Made by a program: the position numbers and the translations under genes | Assembly: GCA_044226015.1 (NCBI GenBank) | Contig: JBGAHS010000001.1 | Span: 1,088,001 to 1,152,000, forward strand | DNA: 64,000 nucleotides | Origin: Candidatus Obscuribacteraceae bacterium | GTDB taxonomy: Bacteria; Cyanobacteriota; Vampirovibrionia; Obscuribacterales; Obscuribacteraceae | Direction of reading: 5' to 3' | Notes under the pieces: generated by a model | What the model was told of the DNA's origin: nothing | Databases searched by the model: none | The model's input: only the letters and a program-made list of their open reading frames with translations | Part shown: positions 34,786 through 58,742 of the stretch, one piece after another | How the letters are laid out: every line of letters begins with the position of its first letter | Numbering within the stretch: position 1 is the first letter of the stretch

Positions 34786-37700
34786 ATGCCAGATCCTAAA
34801 TCAGATTCGGTCAGCCCAGCAACGGATGCTGAAAAATCTGAAAAGACAGTCAGCGCGTCGCAAAGTCAGGCTGTTAAGGACCTGGAGCAGGCTGCGGAGC
34901 AAAGCAAGCTCAGGGACTTGCCACGGTCGAAAACCGCGAAGTACACAGGCAATCTCTATACAAATTTGACGCTAAATCACCATACTGGCGAAGTCAGGAA
35001 GATGCTTCCTGGCAAAGCTAATGTGGCAGATGAATCCGAGTCAAAAGACAAAAAAACTTCCAAGAATGGAGACACTAATTCGTCGGAAGCTGCGGCGGCA
35101 AAGCCGGATCTTGCGAGTGCCACCGCTAAAGCCGCTGGCGATGGAGTTGCTAACTTAATACGGAACTCCGATGGCAAAGTCTCTGACATTGAATATGCTA
35201 ATGGTCGCGATTTTGCCTCAATGAATTACGATGAACAGGGCAATCTGAAGTCTGTTAACGGTCCGATTGAAAATCTGCAAAAACAAGCTGATGGTTCCTG
35301 GCTGTCAACCAACATGGAGCCACCTGGCAAGTATGAGAATGTGACTGTCGATGAAAATGGCGTCATTACCATGTATGAAAAGGGAAAGAAGCCCTTCTCG
35401 ATTGATCCAAAATCTGACTTCAATGAACAGAGCGAAAAGAATGCCACACTGCAGAGTCTTCCGGATGGCGTAAATATAGGCAGAGATCAGCAAGGACGCG
35501 TAAGCGAGATTACATACGGTAATCAAACCGATGGCGCTTACATTCAATACGACAAGGATGGAAAGCCTGAACATATAAACGGTCCCATAGAAAATCTGCA
35601 GCGACAATCCGATGGCTCCTGGCTGTCTACGAATACTGATCCACCGAGCAAATACGAAAATGTTACCGTCGACGAAAATGGTGTAATTACTCTATATGAA
35701 GCAGGTGAGAAACCTTATTCAATCGATCCACGAACTGACTTTACTGCTGATACCGCTGGTAGTGGTGGTGAAATTGTATATCCGGATGGGACAAAAGCTG
35801 AAATAAGGCGCAATGAAAGCGGAGAAATCACGGAACTAACTTTACGTGATGGCATGCATTTGCTTAAGCAAGAAAATGGATGGCAAGCCGTAAATGAAAT
35901 GGGAGAAGGCATCGCCGGCAGCGCTGTTAAAGATGTGGATGTCGCGGAAGATGGCAGCATTAAATTAAGCGATTACCACAATAACACACTTGAATATAAG
36001 CCGGACGGTTCTCAAATTGAGGTCCGCAACGAGGGCTCAATGGTCGAGGTGGACATACATGGTCGGCCGACCAAGGTGACTCTTCCGAGTCCTGCGCATG
36101 GCGCCACTTCTTTCGAGTACAACGATGAAGGCGAACTTGCAAGCATTGATTATGGCAATGGAAATAAATGGACTCATGAATCTGGAGAGACATGGAAGAA
36201 CGATCAGGCAGGTACGACATGGCAAGGTGAAATCAGAGTTCTGAGTGACGGCACCTATAGTTATCGCGCCACGGGAGAAACAGAAGTACATACACAATTT
36301 CCTGATGGTTCCCGGATGACTATGGATGCATCTGGGTATCGAATCCAAACTAAAGATGGTGCGACAATATCCTCTAGCACAGACGATCGAATCAACAGTA
36401 TCGATTATGCAGGATCAAAAGTGCATAGAGACTTTGAATACGACAGCAAAGGAATCTCATCGGTCAGCTATCAAAATGATCTAAATGGTTTTAAGGACAC
36501 TTGGAAGAGGCAAGGTGATTCAAATTGGGTTCAATACGATGATTCCGGCAAACCTACAGGACAAACCTGGCAAGGCGAAATTGCAATAGACCAAGAAAAC
36601 GGCGAATACATTTATCAAAGCAAAGGCTCCAGTGAATATGTTGTTGAACGTCCTGACGGTTCGATCGTCAAGGCTGATGGCAACCACGTTACTGAAGTCA
36701 CGCGGTCAAATGGTGAAACAATCAGTTTCAACAAATATTCGGATCAGGGATATCTCACAGCCTACAAAGATAGCAGCGGTTCGTGGACAAGCGAAGATGG
36801 CATCAAATGGCGCAACCAGGACGGAGACACAAGAATTGAATCGGTCACTGTTGATAGTGAAGGAACTATCAGTATCAACAACGGCGGGGAAACAAAGAAA
36901 CTGCTTAGCAATGGTGCTGAAGTAGACGTAGATAACGCAAGCGATGCAAAAAAATTCTACGATGCGCAAGGACAGCTCACTGAAACGATTGATCCAAACA
37001 ACAATATTTATAAGTTCACCTATAACGATGCAGCTGCTGGGTCCGAAGCCCAGCTAGCCTCTGTGACAGAGCCAGACGGAATCACCTGGACGCCGAAGGA
37101 AAAAACGCAGCTGGGGCCACTCGACACAATTGCTTCCATATTCGGGGGCAACAAGCAGGTCTGGGTATCGGCTGATGGGCAATACGAGAAAGTCGGAGAC
37201 TACTCTATAAACCAGAGGGATGGAAGTCTCACCTTTAAAGATGAGAGCACGAAAATAGAAACGACGGTTCGTCCAGACGGCACTCATACAACAAAAGACG
37301 AAAATCTTAAGAGTGAGACATATGGTCAGGTCAAGACTACTGATGCAAATGGCAATGAGAAGGTTGACACGCCTGCTGTTGATCGCAAGGAAATAGAAAC
37401 AGCGGCAAAGGCTTTCCACGATGCTATCGGTTTGATGGAAGCCACCACTGACACCGATCTGATGAAGACCATGCTGAAGGGCAGGTCAGAAGCCGAAATT
37501 ACAGTGATGGATGACTATTACAAGACTAACTACGGCGTATCGCTGAAGGAAGCCATAGCCGCAAGCACATCAGGTCCCGATAAAATTGAGTTGGAGAATC
37601 TTGTCGATCACGTCGATGGTCAGGACGACAATGCTGGATTCATAGAAGTGAAACTTGCTGAATTGGCAGAAACTAAGTATCTCGATCCTAAAGCCATTGA

Positions 37701-40700
37701 TGCTATTGGAACTGAGATTCGGCAAAAACTTGCATCGATGAATTCTGAGCAGATAGCACAAATGAACGCTGATTTTGCGAAGGAAGACCCTGAGCACAGA
37801 ACGGTACTTCAAGCCATTAGCGATAATCCAAAAATTTCTCAGGCGACAAAAGATGCCGTTGCTGTTTACGCCAGGGGGACGGACCAACTCACCCAAAAAG
37901 ATTATCAATCGATTGTCGAACAGTCCTTGACGAATGGCGATCTGCAACAGTTTAAGGAATCTATTGCGCATATGTCGGCAGAAGCACGGCAAGACTTTAT
38001 GGCGAACGGTGGTGAAAGCAAAATAAGTGAAGCCTTCTCGCATTGGTACGATTCTGATGAATTTGTTTCAGCGCTTGATTATGCAAGAAACGGTCGTGAA
38101 AGCCTTGCTCATAAGATAGCTACTGAAACCGGCAATTTGAATGACAACGAAGCAGGAATTGAAGCCGCCGTTAATGAGATGTCCGATGCTGACCATAGAG
38201 CTTTTGCAGAGGGGCGCAAAATATTTGCTGAAAAGGGAGCTGATGCTGACCCCAGTTCAATGACAGCTGAACAAAGAGACTCATATCAATATTACAAAGA
38301 AGCGCATGCGGCATTCCAAAGCGCGGGCAACCAATCTGAAGTCTTGAAATGGGAAGACAAAGCGATTGCGGGCGGCGAAGGAACAATCATTTCTAAAGCA
38401 CTTAGCCATGCTGGAACCGTTTATGACGACAAGATGGGAGCTGTCATTGCTGATATCGAAAATATGAGCGAGAAAGACTTCAATGAATTCAAGAATAATC
38501 CAGATTTTCAAAATCGCCTTCAAGAGATGTACTCGACCTATTTGAATGCAGATGAAATGGCTCGAGTACAGGAAGTCATGGATAAGAAGGTGCAAGCTGA
38601 GGATTTTGATGCGGCATCACAAGCAAGACGCCCCTTTGCAGAAGCAGTCGCAGATGCAATTGATGCTGGAGACGAAAAAGCGTTTCTGGAAGCAATTGCG
38701 ACGATGACGCCATCTGACCGGGCTGATTTTCAAAATAATAAAGATGGAATCAGAGATGCCGTCAAAAGCTATGCATCTGACAGCGGCACTCAAGCCGCGG
38801 TTGATTACTTAAGTGCGAAGATAGCGCGTGGTGAAGAAACGAGTAAGGACGATATTGTTGTTAAAGCAAGCATTCATTATGCGACTGAAACTTTTGTCGA
38901 TGAGGCTCAAGTTACAAGCGAGGTGTTGGATGCTTTTAAGAAGGATCCAACACTGCGAGATCGCATTATAAATCCTCAGAACGATGCTGACCGTGAGTTA
39001 GCCACTGCTTTTGGTACCGCACTCAGCTCTGCAATGGGTAGCTCCGATTACGAAGCTTACATAAAGCCGATTTTGGAAACAGGCGGTCTGACTTCCGAGG
39101 CTATGTCGAGCCTGTTCAAGGGGACGATTGATAGCAATGAGACCGGATTTTATGAAGCTTTGTCCTCCTTGCCGGCTGCTGAAAGAAAGAAAATGCAAGA
39201 TGACCCTGGCCAGTACATGTCATTCATGAGCGCGGAAGATCGTGCCGTTGCGATGAATATTCTTGCTCAAGACGGGAAAATGTCTCCTGAAGACAAAATT
39301 CGTGCTTATCAACTTGGTGCCGGGACAATGGAGAAGGAGATTAAAGAGATGCTCTCAACTATGTCGCCGGAAGAGATCGAACTAATGAAGCGCAACTATG
39401 CCAAAAAGTACGACTCTAATCTAAATGCAGATTTGATGAGTGAACTCTCTGGAAAAGATCTCAGAGATACAAATAAGATGCTTGAGCGTCCACAAAGCAG
39501 CGGGGAAGCTTTTAACGATGCACTCGATGACGCAAGAGATGTGCATACTGGTTCTGCTTCGCAGTATAGCGATTACTTCAATGGAACTGGCGAGAGCGTA
39601 GACGATGCCGCTATACAATTCGGGAAGACTGTAGCCGAGTATTCGAAGAACTTTCAAGAGCTGCCACCTGATATTCAAAAGCAACTTGTTGAGACAATGA
39701 AAACAGCTGTTGATGCGCACAAAGAGTCTAAAGAAGCGATGGCTGATGCCATGGTCAACGGAATTGTCACAGTCGCTGCAGTGGCTGGAGCACTCCCTAC
39801 TGGTGGTGTCAGTCTTGCCGGGGTTGGAGTTTTGGCGGCAGGTGGTGGTGCCTTCAAGGTAGCCGTGAAGAGCACCATGATGGGTGAATCATATGACTGG
39901 GATGCTAGTGCATATTCTGATTTTGCCTCTGGGGCTCTTGATGCTGCAGTTTCTGCATCTATAGCTGGAAAAGGGCTTGCAAACCTGGGCGAGGAAGCTG
40001 CAACTAAGACCGCGGAAGTGATGAGCAAGTCTGCCAGTGCCATGATGAAGGAAGGGGCAGATGCTGTTTTAGCCTCGGAGATCAAGAATGCAACGAAAAC
40101 TGCATTAGAGTCCGGAGCCAAAGAAATCTCAGAAGCAACCCTGGAGTCAATAGCAAAAGCCTATGCAAAACCTGGCATGGAAAAAGCATTTCAGCAGGAA
40201 CTTAAAGAAACGCTCGAAAAGGAGATTTTAGCCGAAACAAAGGATAGAGCAAAAGCAATTGCAATTGCATTTGCTGAAGAGGTTGGAGCTAGTGGTGTTG
40301 GTGGCTCCGCTGGTGGTGCAGCATCTGGAATAATGACCGCAGACTACGATTATGGCTTTCTTGGCAATTTGGAGAACATGGCTAAATCGGCAGCTCTGAG
40401 TGCCGCTACTGCTGCCGCTGGAACGGTTGCACTCAAAGGATTATTTTCTGTTGGAAGCGAACTTTACGCGGGTCTAAAAGGCATTGGCGGTAAATCGCTA
40501 GCTGACGATGCAATAACAGAAATGAACTCGCCTACAATACCTGATCCACCCCCGCCTACGATACCTGATCTTGAAAGTCCAACGATACCGCGCCTGAATC
40601 CCGCCACGATTCCGGTTTTAGAAGCGCCTGTTTCACAAGGTATGGAACCATTATCTATCTCGGATGTCGACACTCCGACATTAACGGATATAGAGCCAGT

Positions 40701-42378
40701 AATGATATCTGATTTCGACTCGCCTACATTAGTTGATTCACCAGCAATCTCCGAAGTCGAATTAGCTAGTTCGCCAGGCATAGATCAATCCATCACAGCT
40801 CCAGATCTCGGACAGGTGTCAATTGATACGCCAGTTCCGCCTGGTGATGCTCCTACAGGAGTGTATAAACGTCCTCCTGCAGTGAATAAAGATGGCGAAA
40901 CAAATGTAGCTATTCCCGTCAGCAAAAAAACATTTGATGCCGACCCAAAGGCACCAGAAACGGTGCCCAATATCGACCCTCTTGCTAATGCCGATACGCT
41001 GCCAAATCAACAAGTAATCAAAGGCAAATTCTGGCGCCCGTTAAACCGTGATGGAGAGACGCAAGTAGAGCTACCTGGACTCAAGAAACCGCAAGCGGGT
41101 GCAGATGCAAACGCTCACGTGGAAGCCACCAAGCAGTTCAAAGATAGTCCCACAGTGAAAATCGAAACTGCCGAAAGCAAGCTAAAAAAGATTCAAGAGG
41201 CCGAGACTATCATTCTCAAGCGTCCTGCCGAACTCGACGCAATGTGGGCTGATACCATAAGCGGGCAACTACCAGAAGTCGTCAAAGCAATTCAGGAAGC
41301 AAAAACAGTTATCATTCAAAGACCTGAAGGTGCTGTCAATCTCGCGGATGCAGAGGTCACAATTCAAATAAAATTGCCTGAAGCGAAAGTTCCAAATCGT
41401 CCGCCGATGGATGATGCACTGGCTAAGAAAATTGAGGCAGCAAAATCCAATCCTTTACCGCGAACTGACATCGATGCCAAACTTGATGTTATGAGCGCAA
41501 TTGATGATGAGATGGAACATAACGGTGAAAAGATTCAAATTGGCTTTCTCGACGTCAATATCAATGGGGTAGATGCATCGCTGGTCAAGCCTGGTGGAGC
41601 ATTCTACTATGACCATCAACCTGGAGCTAAGACAGGTGCCGTTGAAAATAAAGTGCATGTTGAAGCAGCAAATCCAGAGGAATTAGCGAAAATGCAAGCA
41701 GTGCTAATTCCAGCATTGAAGACCGATCCTGCTTTAAAAGATCTGGTCGAAAATTGGAAAACGATTGATCCTCGTTATGGCATGGAAAATCCGAAGTGGG
41801 CAACCGCCGATGGCAAAGCACCATCTGACCAGATTGGCCCTGGTAATCGAGGACAAGATGCAAAAGCGTTCACCATTTATCCTAAAGATGCAAAAGCTGC
41901 GGAGGCTATCGCAAAAAGAATAGACGAAATCTTGGCTCAATATCCGGAGTTCCGAAATAAGGATATTATTCCTAGTGGTAATGCTGATACGCTTGTTGGA
42001 ACAACTAACCGCGTTGGTGTGGTAAAAGACTACATCGAGAAAGCACCGGGTAGTACTGAAGATCGGCCTCAAGGGCTCATCGATCAAGAAGTCGGTGATG
42101 CCATCAAGAATGATGGTGACCTACATGAGCGCGCTGTAGCTAGCGGTGTCACCGCGCTAGATCAATTAAGCAAAGAGCTAGGGTTGCAGCCTGGCATTCT
42201 GCATGAAGATGCTCAAGGAAATATCGTAATTGACTTGCCTCCGGCACCTGGATATAAAAAATTTCCAGTCGTTTACATGGACGAATCGGAGGCCGGAAAA
42301 AATTTCGGAGAGTTTAATTCACGCCCGGCAGTTTATGAGATTTACAAGAAATACGGTTACGATCCCAAGGACTTTTGA
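34786..42378 (+). CDS. Giant 2530-aa multidomain protein: YD-like repeats, annexin-like repeats, hydrophobic segment, Thr/Pro linker, putative OspF/SpvC-like phosphothreonine lyase C-terminal domain
   Basis: Uninterrupted 7.6-kb ORF; motifs detailed in the findings. The ORF is secure, the domain calls are by-eye. Confidence 0.75.
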   Translation: MPDPKSDSVSPATDAEKSEKTVSASQSQAVKDLEQAAEQSKLRDLPRSKTAKYTGNLYTNLTLNHHTGEVRKMLPGKANVADESESKDKKTSKNGDTNSSEAAAAKPDLASATAKAAGDGVANLIRNSDGKVSDIEYANGRDFASMNYDEQGNLKSVNGPIENLQKQADGSWLSTNMEPPGKYENVTVDENGVITMYEKGKKPFSIDPKSDFNEQSEKNATLQSLPDGVNIGRDQQGRVSEITYGNQTDGAYIQYDKDGKPEHINGPIENLQRQSDGSWLSTNTDPPSKYENVTVDENGVITLYEAGEKPYSIDPRTDFTADTAGSGGEIVYPDGTKAEIRRNESGEITELTLRDGMHLLKQENGWQAVNEMGEGIAGSAVKDVDVAEDGSIKLSDYHNNTLEYKPDGSQIEVRNEGSMVEVDIHGRPTKVTLPSPAHGATSFEYNDEGELASIDYGNGNKWTHESGETWKNDQAGTTWQGEIRVLSDGTYSYRATGETEVHTQFPDGSRMTMDASGYRIQTKDGATISSSTDDRINSIDYAGSKVHRDFEYDSKGISSVSYQNDLNGFKDTWKRQGDSNWVQYDDSGKPTGQTWQGEIAIDQENGEYIYQSKGSSEYVVERPDGSIVKADGNHVTEVTRSNGETISFNKYSDQGYLTAYKDSSGSWTSEDGIKWRNQDGDTRIESVTVDSEGTISINNGGETKKLLSNGAEVDVDNASDAKKFYDAQGQLTETIDPNNNIYKFTYNDAAAGSEAQLASVTEPDGITWTPKEKTQLGPLDTIASIFGGNKQVWVSADGQYEKVGDYSINQRDGSLTFKDESTKIETTVRPDGTHTTKDENLKSETYGQVKTTDANGNEKVDTPAVDRKEIETAAKAFHDAIGLMEATTDTDLMKTMLKGRSEAEITVMDDYYKTNYGVSLKEAIAASTSGPDKIELENLVDHVDGQDDNAGFIEVKLAELAETKYLDPKAIDAIGTEIRQKLASMNSEQIAQMNADFAKEDPEHRTVLQAISDNPKISQATKDAVAVYARGTDQLTQKDYQSIVEQSLTNGDLQQFKESIAHMSAEARQDFMANGGESKISEAFSHWYDSDEFVSALDYARNGRESLAHKIATETGNLNDNEAGIEAAVNEMSDADHRAFAEGRKIFAEKGADADPSSMTAEQRDSYQYYKEAHAAFQSAGNQSEVLKWEDKAIAGGEGTIISKALSHAGTVYDDKMGAVIADIENMSEKDFNEFKNNPDFQNRLQEMYSTYLNADEMARVQEVMDKKVQAEDFDAASQARRPFAEAVADAIDAGDEKAFLEAIATMTPSDRADFQNNKDGIRDAVKSYASDSGTQAAVDYLSAKIARGEETSKDDIVVKASIHYATETFVDEAQVTSEVLDAFKKDPTLRDRIINPQNDADRELATAFGTALSSAMGSSDYEAYIKPILETGGLTSEAMSSLFKGTIDSNETGFYEALSSLPAAERKKMQDDPGQYMSFMSAEDRAVAMNILAQDGKMSPEDKIRAYQLGAGTMEKEIKEMLSTMSPEEIELMKRNYAKKYDSNLNADLMSELSGKDLRDTNKMLERPQSSGEAFNDALDDARDVHTGSASQYSDYFNGTGESVDDAAIQFGKTVAEYSKNFQELPPDIQKQLVETMKTAVDAHKESKEAMADAMVNGIVTVAAVAGALPTGGVSLAGVGVLAAGGGAFKVAVKSTMMGESYDWDASAYSDFASGALDAAVSASIAGKGLANLGEEAATKTAEVMSKSASAMMKEGADAVLASEIKNATKTALESGAKEISEATLESIAKAYAKPGMEKAFQQELKETLEKEILAETKDRAKAIAIAFAEEVGASGVGGSAGGAASGIMTADYDYGFLGNLENMAKSAALSAATAAAGTVALKGLFSVGSELYAGLKGIGGKSLADDAITEMNSPTIPDPPPPTIPDLESPTIPRLNPATIPVLEAPVSQGMEPLSISDVDTPTLTDIEPVMISDFDSPTLVDSPAISEVELASSPGIDQSITAPDLGQVSIDTPVPPGDAPTGVYKRPPAVNKDGETNVAIPVSKKTFDADPKAPETVPNIDPLANADTLPNQQVIKGKFWRPLNRDGETQVELPGLKKPQAGADANAHVEATKQFKDSPTVKIETAESKLKKIQEAETIILKRPAELDAMWADTISGQLPEVVKAIQEAKTVIIQRPEGAVNLADAEVTIQIKLPEAKVPNRPPMDDALAKKIEAAKSNPLPRTDIDAKLDVMSAIDDEMEHNGEKIQIGFLDVNINGVDASLVKPGGAFYYDHQPGAKTGAVENKVHVEAANPEELAKMQAVLIPALKTDPALKDLVENWKTIDPRYGMENPKWATADGKAPSDQIGPGNRGQDAKAFTIYPKDAKAAEAIAKRIDEILAQYPEFRNKDIIPSGNADTLVGTTNRVGVVKDYIEKAPGSTEDRPQGLIDQEVGDAIKNDGDLHERAVASGVTALDQLSKELGLQPGILHEDAQGNIVIDLPPAPGYKKFPVVYMDESEAGKNFGEFNSRPAVYEIYKKYGYDPKDF
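35160..35742 (+). repeat. Intragenic duplication, period 321 bp (107 aa)
   Basis: GPIENLQKQADGSWLSTN...YENVTVDENGVITMYE..SIDP starts at 35260; near-identical GPIENLQRQSDGSWLSTN...YENVTVDENGVITLYE..SIDP starts at 35581. Confidence 0.9.
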
Positions 42379-43037
42379 GTGAGTATGAATCAATGACAAG
42401 CAAAACCTTCTATTCTCCGCTATCGCAAAGAGTGCGTCCTTTTCTGGTTATGTCCCAGGCCAGAGCTGCAAAAGCAAATGCAAGACTGAGCATAACGCGT
42501 CGCTTTGTTTTGGGAAGTACGCATTGGCTTCTCGTCACAAATCCTCAAGATCAATCAAGTCAGGAAGTTTCCATAGACTGGCTTTCGCCTCGGTATGAAG
42601 GCGTTTTTGCTGCACTACTACCTGCCTATATGAGTTTCGACCCCAGTGATGGTGCAGTGGAACACACAATTGTTGAAGTAATTAATAAAACCGAACTTAG
42701 GATTTTAAATGAGCAAGAAATAGCAGTGCTCTTGCCTCATATTCAAGCTGAAATTGTAGGGAGGCGAATTTGGACCGAAGACCTGCAGCAAAGCACCCTA
42801 TTTGGTGACATCAAGAATTCGTTGGGTACCTTCAGTGAAGAGCCTTCAGTGAAAGAGTCTTCAGTGAAAGAGTCTGATGCCGTTGATTTGCTTGCTTCAG
42901 CTGATAGTCATGGTGCGGTCCCCTCTACAGGAACAGATGTTTCGTCTGCAGCAGTAGCTTCCGCACCAGTTGCTTCAGATAGTTCTGAAAACTTGCCTGA
43001 TTCTGCTAAATCGCCAAGGAAGAGGCGTTTTTTCTGA
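42375..43037 (+). CDS. Hypothetical protein overlapping the giant gene's stop codon (candidate immunity/partner; alternative ATG at 42393)
   Basis: TTG start overlaps the TGA stop; about 150-aa globular-looking part plus Ser/Ala-rich tail. Confidence 0.6.
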   Translation: MSEYESMTSKTFYSPLSQRVRPFLVMSQARAAKANARLSITRRFVLGSTHWLLVTNPQDQSSQEVSIDWLSPRYEGVFAALLPAYMSFDPSDGAVEHTIVEVINKTELRILNEQEIAVLLPHIQAEIVGRRIWTEDLQQSTLFGDIKNSLGTFSEEPSVKESSVKESDAVDLLASADSHGAVPSTGTDVSSAAVASAPVASDSSENLPDSAKSPRKRRFF

Positions 43038-57554: not shown

Positions 57555-58742
57555 ATGAAGCTTTCGTCGGTCGTATTGCTTAGTGTCAATTTAGTAGCTG
57601 CGTCACAAGTCGCAGCAAATGCGGCAGACACCGCGTCGTTCTTGCAAGATGCATTGACTCCGTCAGCTGCTTCTGCCAAGGCGGCATCGCGTCCAGCTGC
57701 TCGTCCTGTAGCGAAGAAACGCGCATCAAAAACGTCCTACGTTGCGATGACACCGGTGATGGATGGCGTTAAGTGCCGTCCATTCATGCCTGGTCGCTAT
57801 CTTCCCAGCGAATCTGAACTTGAGGCGAGGAAAGAAGCTGAACGCGCTCGTCGTGAGGCTGATGCTGCTCAGCGTGCTATGTCCTTCGCTCCTGATGTGC
57901 TCACAGGCAGAGTCGCTGCCACCAATGATATGTCGAACATGGGCGCGATGATGGCTCCTGCTGCGTCGTACTCGATGTCTCGTCCGGCTAATCAAGACTA
58001 CATGCACAAGGTTCAAGGAATTGTGCAGAAAGTCAAAGAAGCCGCAAAAGGTTATTCACTTGCGCATACTCGCTCTGTGCCTGGAATGAACCCAGTCATG
58101 CCCGGGCAGTTCGCGCATAATTCCGGTGCTACTGCGATGCCTCGCATACCTGAGCCGCAGCGTGCCACAATGCCGCTGAATGTTCCGCAACCTCCTGTTG
58201 CGCGCAGCATGCCAGTGCAAGTGCCACAAGCACCACAACACGTTGCAGCCTCCACCCCCGTAGTGCCGCTGCCATCGCTCAGCAAGTGGGACAACGCTCA
58301 GCTCGATAAGCTGATCGACAACAACATGCCTGAGAACGTTTACGCAAATGTCAACGGAGATATGAGAGCTGGTCAGGGTAATCCGGGAGTGTCCGGGGCA
58401 GGCCCGACGCCATACCCGTTGAATTCTTCTATTAATCGCCGCGGCGTTCAAACCATTGGCGCCCAAGCGCGTTTCGGTTCATGGCACGGCGGTCATGAGA
58501 ATCTGCCGCAGAGTTCGTTCCAATCATATATGCCAGTGCATATGGCTGGACCAATGTCTGTAAAGATCAATCATTACAGCGGTGGGTCAAAGAAAACAGG
58601 GCGCCAGGCTGCGCGCATTGCTGGCAAGCACCACGCGTCTTCAGCTTCCACGGCGGCAGCTTCGGTCGTGAAAGTCGACAAGGTTAAATCTGTGCCGGCA
58701 GCGAGTTACCCGCCATATCGTCGCTATGGTTCGATGTTCTAA
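57555..58742 (+). CDS. Secreted Ala/Pro/Met-rich hypothetical protein
   Basis: Signal peptide ending ANA-A; low complexity; terminator downstream. Confidence 0.7.
   Translation: MKLSSVVLLSVNLVAASQVAANAADTASFLQDALTPSAASAKAASRPAARPVAKKRASKTSYVAMTPVMDGVKCRPFMPGRYLPSESELEARKEAERARREADAAQRAMSFAPDVLTGRVAATNDMSNMGAMMAPAASYSMSRPANQDYMHKVQGIVQKVKEAAKGYSLAHTRSVPGMNPVMPGQFAHNSGATAMPRIPEPQRATMPLNVPQPPVARSMPVQVPQAPQHVAASTPVVPLPSLSKWDNAQLDKLIDNNMPENVYANVNGDMRAGQGNPGVSGAGPTPYPLNSSINRRGVQTIGAQARFGSWHGGHENLPQSSFQSYMPVHMAGPMSVKINHYSGGSKKTGRQAARIAGKHHASSASTAAASVVKVDKVKSVPAASYPPYRRYGSMF

What the first reader, a model, noticed from the sequence alone, without database searches (positions are those of the whole stretch)
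41500..42378. C-terminal domain carries OspF/SpvC/HopAI1-type phosphothreonine lyase motifs
Seen: ENKVHVEA (K2289, H2291; nt 41650-41658), VENWKTID (K2325), NRGQDAKAFTIYPK (R2355, Y2365) and NRVGVV (R2409). Established, recalled from memory: SpvC has GDKFHISV (K104/H106), VDKWKVTD (K136) and R148...AQFTLY (Y158), and class III/IV lanthipeptide lyase domains have KxH...K...KFITIYP. Motif order matches and the R-to-Y spacing of 10 is the same. No kinase, cyclase or precursor peptide is adjacent, so a toxin/effector role is inferred rather than RiPP synthesis.
Basis: partly seen in the sequence, partly recalled or inferred. Interest (0 to 1): 0.85.

Follow-up and report, generated by a model that had tools for sequence, protein, structure and literature searches.

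The report
Phosphothreonine-lyase toxin tip with partner gene
A giant bacterial protein ends in a domain predicted to strip phosphate irreversibly from phosphothreonine, and a small partner gene sits directly behind it, which likely makes it a toxin-immunity pair that would attack phospho-signalling in rival bacteria, a role not found in our literature searches for this enzyme class.

Summary
The motifs are real and more than chance. The domain (residues about 2250-2530 of a 2530-aa RHS/annexin-like protein) has five copies in this genome and occurs in 47 of 104 genomes of the family (probably Obscuribacterales). K2289, H2291, K2325, K2360, Y2365, R2409 and R2513 are kept in 99-108 of 109 homologous domains. 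The AlphaFold model (pLDDT 86) ranks lanthipeptide and effector phosphothreonine lyases first (ThurKC Z 9.1, SpvC 7.0), at modest scores. Correction: R2355 is not conserved (8 of 109); K2360 likely plays SpvC R148, as in LanKC, so the domain is LanKC-like rather than an OspF/SpvC member. New: all three lyase genes here, and 10 of 20 further non-seed loci, are followed directly by a small DUF1292-like gene. Relatives show fragment-partner cassettes and adjacent FHA domains (26 of 115). The genome has at least 150 Ser/Thr kinase matches; no T3SS, T6SS or LanC was found. Best reading: a polymorphic toxin that eliminates phosphate from bacterial pThr proteins, with a cognate immunity protein (0.5). 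Activity, binding, export and target are untested.

The parts
34786..42378 (+). Giant 2530-aa protein: RHS-like repeats, annexin-like helical region, hydrophobic segment, Pro-rich linker, C-terminal lyase-like domain
36958..37080 (+). Best RHS_repeat match (res 725-765) within a long repeat region of about res 120-850
   Evidence: Pfam E 1.5e-10, over cut-off; self-similar giant paralogues
39298..39456 (+). Best annexin-like match (res 1505-1557)
   Evidence: Pfam E 2.3e-11, 2 stretches
39736..39849 (+). Only hydrophobic segment (res 1651-1688); membrane-insertion role inferred
   Evidence: Kyte-Doolittle peak 1.73; similar segment in 2 of 3 giant paralogues checked
40498..41475 (+). Pro-rich, variable linker (about res 1905-2230)
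   Evidence: composition; BLAST gap against P0002 and P0007
41533..42378 (+). Phosphothreonine-lyase-like domain (res about 2250-2530)
   Evidence: AF2 pLDDT 86.3, pTM 0.84; fold searches; hhalign
41650..41658 (+). K2289 and H2291 (SpvC K104/H106, ThurKC K65/H67)
   Evidence: 106 and 101 of 109; aligned
41758..41760 (+). K2325, predicted catalytic base (SpvC K136, ThurKC K94)
   Evidence: 106 of 109
41863..41880 (+). K2360 (VenL K103, likely ThurKC K117, functional stand-in for SpvC R148) and Y2365 (SpvC Y158)
   Evidence: 106 and 99 of 109
41986..42027 (+). D2401 (SpvC D201), R2409 and K2414; one of the last two is the SpvC R213 equivalent, unresolved
   Evidence: D 58 + E 11, R 108, R/K 98 of 109
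42028..42270 (+). Family-specific, largely helical insertion of about 80-95 residues (limits approximate)
   Evidence: secondary structure; duplicated on its own in P0006, P0010
42322..42324 (+). R2513, likely SpvC R220 / ThurKC R191 equivalent
   Evidence: 100 of 109; inferred from the end points of the structural alignments
42375..43037 (+). Partner gene, 220 aa (TTG overlapping the stop by 4 nt; alternative ATG at 42393): about 130-aa DUF1292-like beta domain plus acidic low-complexity tail; candidate immunity protein

Best explanation
The gene encodes a giant RHS/annexin-like protein whose C-terminal domain is predicted to be a phosphothreonine lyase that likely acts as a toxin on the Ser/Thr-phosphorylated proteins of rival bacteria, and the small gene directly behind it likely encodes its immunity protein. 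Shown: architecture, conserved residues, modular occurrence at the tips of giant proteins, linkage to the partner gene, FHA neighbours in relatives, at least 150 Ser/Thr kinase matches in the genome. Predicted: lyase fold. Inferred from SpvC/ThurKC chemistry: K2325 removes the alpha-proton of pThr/pSer, H2291 protonates the leaving phosphate, K2289, K2360, R2409/K2414 and R2513 hold it, leaving dehydrobutyrine that cannot be re-phosphorylated. Inferred from polymorphic-toxin logic: the N-terminal part exports, displays or inserts the protein; FHA domains in relatives steer the lyase to pThr proteins; the partner neutralises it in the producer and its kin. The delivery route is not identified.
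For: Catalytic set kept in 99-108 of 109 domains, six residues together in 88 of 109. Foldseek ranks 1-11 all lanthipeptide or effector lyases; VIA top hits ThurKC Z 9.1 (rmsd 3.4, 133 aligned), CuvL 8.8, HopA1 7.1, SpvC 7.0. hhalign to LanKC/LanL prob 90, E 1.6e-6; to RamC_N-positive giant proteins of another order prob 98.7. Domain is a swappable module: 1-3 copies per protein beside FHA, transglutaminase-like, EDR1 peptidase-like, phosphatase domains. FHA in 26 of 115 homologues, within 82 aa of the lyase in 24 of 26; in this genome FHA in 2 of 3 giant ORFs with the lyase against 2 of 77 without. Partner gene behind 3 of 3 lyase genes here and otherwise only a distant DUF1292 gene; behind 15 of 25 complete loci, 10 of 20 non-seed; 10 of 25 partner genes not used as seeds lie within 4 kb downstream of a lyase match. 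L084 reads lyase fragment-partner-lyase remnant-partner and L079 has tandem partners, as in toxin-immunity cassettes. A degenerate copy (L059) and a copy ending in a peptidase-like domain (L052) lack the partner. Kinase count.
Against: No Foldseek hit reaches E<=0.001 and TM-scores are 0.27-0.33; Z of 7-9 is near what common arrangements give, and eIF4E scores 7.2. No sequence-profile match to SpvC; RamC_N match is below cut-off (16.5 of 27 bits). Pocket geometry could not be measured (no coordinates returned). 8 of 25 complete loci lack the partner within about 0.5-1.5 kb and 2 are doubtful; 15 of 25 non-seed partner genes have no lyase match within 4 kb upstream, three follow glycosyltransferase genes and two are fused to zinc ribbons. 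Partner homology is weak: with close relatives left out, the window's partner scored E 0.017 and paralogue B's was missed by the 11-row model. No T3SS gate, T6SS sheath, phage-type sheath or VirB4 found, so export is unexplained. The window's own protein has no FHA domain and Lys rather than the family's Arg at 2414.
Confidence: 0.5

Rival explanations
1. The domain is an active lyase, but it is an effector aimed at eukaryotes (algae, protists), destroying pThr signalling as OspF/SpvC do; the partner is a chaperone or a self-protection factor.
For: All characterised stand-alone lyases are host-directed effectors (PMC13151050 passages). Homologues carry annexin-like, EDR1 peptidase-like and phosphatase domains. 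A predatory relative of this class attacks algae (recalled, no call). A kinase-rich producer would need protection whatever the target.
Against: No T3SS export gate. SpvC pTyr pocket F100/K134/K160 maps to A2285/N2323/K2367, 1 of 3. Orphan and tandem partner genes fit defence against neighbours' toxins better than a chaperone role.
Confidence: 0.2
2. The lyase works with a dedicated kinase as a split dehydratase or an internal off-switch that makes dehydroamino acids on the cell's own proteins or on the giant protein itself; the partner is an adaptor.
For: A distinct Ser/Thr kinase subfamily lies directly behind the lyase gene, sometimes fused to the partner domain, in L088, L090, L091, and 2.4 and 4.2 kb downstream in G286:C63 and G275:C126. 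Closest folds are lanthipeptide dehydratase lyases. No secretion system identified.
Against: That kinase subfamily is in 75 of 104 genomes and mostly unlinked; this genome's 2 copies are not beside any lyase gene. No LanC match (control rang nowhere) and no kinase domain in 56 homologues. Sporadic distribution and fragment cassettes fit conflict genes.
Confidence: 0.15
3. The fold is shared but the chemistry differs: a phospho-binding module, a phosphatase, or a nucleotide/RNA-binding domain of the eIF4E-like superfamily.
For: eIF4E ties with SpvC in the structure search (Z 7.2 against 7.0); large insertion; D201 and R213 registers are shifted.
Against: eIF4E lacks the K136 and H106 equivalents (PMC4159009, Results), whereas here both are kept in 106 and 101 of 109; the best hits by both programs are lyases.
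Confidence: 0.15

Closest known systems
Class III/IV lanthipeptide synthetase lyase domains (ThurKC 8SAM, CuvL 8CAR, VenL; Pfam RamC_N PF25816)
   Same: Best structural hits (Z 9.1, 8.8); K-x-H, W/F-K and K-x-x-T-I-Y motifs align, including the Lys five residues before the Tyr (PMC8341899, PMC10604976 passages).
   Different: Not fused to kinase or cyclase, no precursor peptide gene seen; C-terminal module of a giant RHS/annexin-like protein; 80-95-residue insertion; below Pfam cut-off.
OspF/SpvC/HopAI1/VirA type III effector lyases (Pfam VRP3 PF03536)
   Same: Same predicted fold (SpvC Z 7.0, rmsd 4.3, 153 aligned; OspF Foldseek rank 3) and K104/H106/K136/Y158 equivalents; toxin-like use.
   Different: No sequence-profile match; R148 replaced by a Lys in another position; pTyr pocket mostly absent; not a small stand-alone effector; no T3SS gate in the genome; has a linked partner gene.
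Polymorphic toxin systems (RHS, CDI and related; defining features recalled)
   Same: Large repeat-rich N-terminus, variable C-terminal enzyme cassettes, small gene directly downstream, orphan fragment-partner cassettes.
   Different: No known delivery system found; several enzyme modules are often stacked with FHA domains; no paper pairs this toxin class with a phosphothreonine lyase.
Class V lanthipeptide LanK/LanY (LxmKY) split dehydratase
   Same: LxmKY is among the fold hits (Z 6.9); some related loci have a separate kinase gene beside the lyase gene.
   Different: Kinase linkage is seen in about 5 loci only and not in this genome; no RiPP cluster.
DUF1292 (PF06949), for the partner
   Same: Weak Pfam matches (E 0.0025, 0.05) and the partner profile recovers the genome's true DUF1292 gene.
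   Different: Below cut-off, longer, highly divergent, linked to lyase genes; no solved fold match.

Membership tests
Phosphothreonine lyase superfamily (works like) | Alpha/beta lyase fold | tested here: met
   Top-ranked by Foldseek (ranks 1-11) and VIA-align (ranks 1, 2, 4, 5, 7, 9), modest scores
Phosphothreonine lyase superfamily (works like) | Catalytic Lys base, His acid, first Lys, Tyr | tested here: met
   K2325 106, H2291 101, K2289 106, Y2365 99 of 109; aligned to LanKC and in register with SpvC
Phosphothreonine lyase superfamily (works like) | Asp supporting the His and three basic phosphate ligands | tested here: inconclusive
   D2401 D/E in 69 of 109; K2360, R2409, R/K2414, R2513 conserved, but R213 and R220 equivalents are inferred
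Phosphothreonine lyase superfamily (works like) | Residues cluster in one pocket | not testable with these tools
   Model coordinates are not returned
Phosphothreonine lyase superfamily (works like) | Beta-elimination of phosphate | not testable with these tools
   Needs an assay
OspF/SpvC family (PF03536) | Sequence-profile match | tested here: not met
   No Pfam VRP3 match; hhalign prob 0.5-1%
OspF/SpvC family (PF03536) | Conserved R148 ten residues before Y158 | tested here: not met
   R2355 in 8 of 109
OspF/SpvC family (PF03536) | pTyr pocket F100/K134/K160 | tested here: not met
   A2285/N2323/K2367 by motif offset
OspF/SpvC family (PF03536) | Type III secretion | tested here: not met
   No FHIPEP match in a 92%-complete genome; control rang in 4 of 14
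LanKC/LanL synthetases | Lyase domain of RamC_N type | tested here: inconclusive
   16.5 bits against cut-off 27; hhalign prob 90
LanKC/LanL synthetases | Fused kinase and cyclase domains | tested here: not met
   None in the window protein or in 56 of 115 homologues scanned
Polymorphic toxin-immunity system | Shared N-terminus with variable C-terminal enzyme modules | tested here: met
Polymorphic toxin-immunity system | Cognate small gene directly downstream; orphan cassettes | tested here: met
   3 of 3 in this genome, 15 of 25 loci, L084 and L079 cassettes
Polymorphic toxin-immunity system | Partner binds and neutralises the toxin | not tested
Polymorphic toxin-immunity system | Known export system | tested here: inconclusive
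   No T3SS, T6SS, sheath or VirB4 marker found; TpsB control rang nowhere; FtsK only short matches

The most novel reading that the evidence does not exclude
Obscuribacterales and related Vampirovibrionia wage kin warfare by eliminylation: giant toxins carry LanKC-type lyases, aimed by FHA domains, that permanently erase the phosphothreonine signalling of rivals with hundred-kinase networks, and a DUF1292-derived protein is the first natural protein inhibitor of a phosphothreonine lyase.
Probability: 0.4. Interest if true: 0.88.

Novelty: new variant of a known kind. Interest (0 to 1): 0.74.

Why it matters
Phosphothreonine lyases are described as a small family of pathogen effectors (PMC13151050 abstract) and as parts of lanthipeptide synthetases; a 2014 profile search found no further families (PMC4159009 Results). 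This is a third setting with at least 115 clusters at 50% identity: a modular tip of giant toxin-like proteins in an environmental lineage. If active on bacterial proteins it would extend eliminylation to interbacterial conflict, give a use for a lineage's extreme Ser/Thr kinase expansion as a target, provide a candidate natural lyase inhibitor and a function for a DUF1292-like family, and supply new phospho-eraser reagents with likely non-MAPK specificity. It also bridges LanKC lyases and effector use.

Tried and rejected
Sequence searches of PDB with the domain and with its profile gave only chance rows. hhalign against SpvC was not significant. ESM Atlas gave VRP3/RamC_N clusters at 0.84-0.88 with low recognition, a lead only. 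RamC_N, VRP3 and LANC_like genome searches were empty, but their controls rang nowhere. A length-limited homologue search found one protein; the genome-contig scan one locus; a phage search with a related lyase domain found nothing. R2355=R148 rejected. RiPP synthetase rejected for this locus. The partner's model (pLDDT 73.5) matched no solved fold. Complex prediction of domain plus partner was not available, so binding is open. Earlier-findings look-ups returned nothing. PMC8528326 showed no main-text DUF1292 passage and was not used. 59 of the 115 homologues were not scanned against Pfam. Expression was not examined.
Full report
Observation. The stretch is the end of one intact 2530-aa ORF, 34786-42378(+). 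A pattern of my own joining the motifs hits exactly five places in the genome's 45,558 six-frame ORFs, none in 10 shuffles, and most known lyase domains tested (8 of 10 LanKC/LanL-type, 3 of 3 SpvC-type).

Anatomy. Pfam finds RHS repeats (E 1.5e-10) and annexin-like repeats (E 2.3e-11) in the front part and a sub-threshold RamC_N match at 2354-2386 (16.5 of 27 bits). One hydrophobic segment lies at 1651-1688, then a Pro-rich linker, then the domain. The genome (8.19 Mb, 92% complete) holds two paralogues: a 5065-aa protein with three copies of the domain interleaved with four FHA domains, and a 3076-aa protein with two FHA domains and one C-terminal copy. It has 80 ORFs of 1500 aa or more. One related locus comes from a record titled Candidatus Obscuribacterales; placing this genome there is an inference.

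Family. A full search gave 115 clusters at 50% identity, E<=0.001; the domain is in 47 of 104 genomes of the family, 102 matches. In the 109 domains that cover the core: K2289 106, H2291 101, K2325 106, K2360 106, Y2365 99, D2401 58 (E 11), R2409 108, position 2414 R 94 / K 4, R2513 100, but R2355 only 8. Of 56 homologues scanned with Pfam, 18 carry FHA and none a kinase or LanC domain; others carry transglutaminase-like, EDR1 peptidase-like or phosphatase domains. A local FHA profile finds 26 of 115, 24 of them within 82 residues of the lyase. FHA binds phosphothreonine (established knowledge), which supports a pThr substrate independently of the fold. The window protein itself has no FHA.

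Fold. The AlphaFold model from 17 sequences has pLDDT 86.3, pTM 0.84. Foldseek ranks 1-11 are CuvL, OspF, ThurKC, VirA and LxmKY, with E only 1e-3 to 1.1e-2 and TM 0.27-0.33. VIA-align over 48,161 chains gives ThurKC Z 9.1 (rmsd 3.4, 133 aligned), CuvL 8.8, an eIF4E 7.2, HopA1 7.1, SpvC 7.0, LxmKY 6.9; such Z values are middling, and eIF4E is known to share the fold without the catalytic Lys and His (PMC4159009, abstract and first part of Results read). Profile comparison links the family to 10 LanKC/LanL-type lyase domains (prob 90, E 1.6e-6) and not to three SpvC-type sequences (prob 0.5). A bridge exists: in 8 of 73 genomes of another family of the class, RamC_N matches (7 genomes over cut-off) lie mostly in large proteins of similar build, some beside FHA; they match our family at prob 98.7 and LanKC at 98.5.

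Residue map. From passages of PMC8341899 and PMC10604976: VenL K51/H53/K80/K103/Y108/D137/R149; ThurKC K65/H67/K94/K117/D152/R163/R191, with K117 standing for SpvC R148 and R191 for R220. Here K2289, H2291, K2325, K2360 and Y2365 align directly, so K2360, not R2355, is the likely R148 stand-in. D2401 aligns to the Asp. The R213 equivalent is R2409 or K2414; unresolved. R2513 (model residue 274) falls within one residue of ThurKC R191 and SpvC R220 if the structural alignments are ungapped at their ends (inference), after a family-specific insertion. The SpvC pTyr pocket maps to A2285/N2323/K2367.

Partner gene. The ORF at 42375-43037 overlaps the stop codon. The genes directly behind all three paralogues and behind relatives are mutually similar; a profile finds only these three in the genome plus, weakly, a true DUF1292 gene elsewhere. 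Of 34 loci examined, 8 were open and 1 had no room; 15 of the other 25 have the partner directly behind the lyase gene (10 of 20 when the 5 seeds are dropped), 2 are doubtful, 8 lack it. Leave-one-out E-values were <=8.5e-5 with the 22-row set, but the stricter early test gave E 0.017 for the window's partner and missed paralogue B's. A genome search gave 45 strong rows (E<=6e-6; 41 genes); weaker rows, which look like ordinary DUF1292 genes, were dropped; 10 of 25 non-seed genes lie within 4 kb downstream of a lyase match (73 of the 102 lyase matches were entered, the rest lie on other contigs or repeat listed genes), and one more follows a lyase fragment at a contig start. L084 is a lyase fragment-partner-remnant-partner cassette; L079 has tandem partners; three partners follow glycosyltransferase genes and two are fused to zinc ribbons. 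The partner's model is a beta domain with two helices and no solved match. Binding is untested.

Target and delivery. The genome has at least 150 Pkinase matches over cut-off (150 scored of 175 candidates), so a lyase would be dangerous to the producer and its kin. No FHIPEP, VipB, phage-sheath or VirB4 match was found, with controls ringing; TpsB was uninformative. A distinct kinase subfamily lies directly behind the lyase gene in L088, L090 and L091, fused to the partner domain in two, but it occurs in 75 of 104 genomes and its two copies here are not beside lyase genes.

Mechanism and odds. Active pThr/pSer lyase: about 0.8-0.85. As a toxin on bacterial phosphoproteins with an immunity protein: 0.5. 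Eukaryote-directed effector: 0.2. Internal or kinase-coupled dehydratase: 0.15. Other chemistry: 0.15.

Known versus new. It works like LanKC and SpvC lyases but fails membership of both families as defined. Searches for phosphothreonine lyase with polymorphic toxin, Obscuribacter with giant protein, Obscuribacterales/Vampirovibrio with toxin and secretion terms, Melainabacteria terms and DUF1292 (listing only) found no description; the library lacks most subscription papers and I opened no supplements, so an earlier bioinformatic mention is possible. Verdict: new variant of a known kind, interest 0.74.

Noticed in passing
whole genome G000: At least 150 Hanks-type Ser/Thr kinase matches over the Pfam cut-off; loose candidate counts of up to about 300 in relatives.
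   Followed up: partly
whole genome G000: 80 ORFs of 1500 aa or more, up to 14,400 aa (C12:174188-217387), with no T3SS, T6SS, sheath or VirB4 marker found.
   Followed up: no
L001:2879-18076 (-): 5065-aa paralogue with three lyase copies and four FHA domains, plus an HExxH motif and a weak PRTase-CE match.
   Followed up: partly
L002:4840-14070 (+): 3076-aa paralogue with an HExxH metallopeptidase-like domain and a segment near res 1950-2070 that by eye resembles an ADP-ribosyltransferase (recalled motif, untested).
   Followed up: no
L021-L029: Small-genome relatives of the same class carry large proteins with RamC_N-positive lyase domains, some doubled or beside FHA; no partner gene of this family seen.
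   Followed up: partly
L088, L090, L091, L081, L077: A distinct Ser/Thr kinase subfamily sits behind giant genes, sometimes fused to the DUF1292-like domain; in 75 of 104 genomes, with tandem arrays in G283 and G284.
   Followed up: partly
L084:1170-2657 (-): Lyase fragment-partner-lyase remnant-partner cassette.
   Followed up: partly
L075, L076, L080: Partner-like gene behind two PMT-type glycosyltransferase genes, without a lyase.
   Followed up: no
L005:1-2856 (+): Giant protein with a P-loop kinase-like domain before the lyase and a papain-like peptidase tip (both by eye), followed by an unrelated small gene.
   Followed up: no
ESM Atlas row 4: A 139-aa cluster with RamC_N in 37% of members, commonest taxon Uroviricota: possible stand-alone phage lyases.
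   Followed up: no
L001:597-2312 (+): NADAR-like gene convergent on the paralogue B locus.
   Followed up: no
window:46307-48520 and 57555-58742: Two sizeable ORFs without a confident Pfam match.
   Followed up: no
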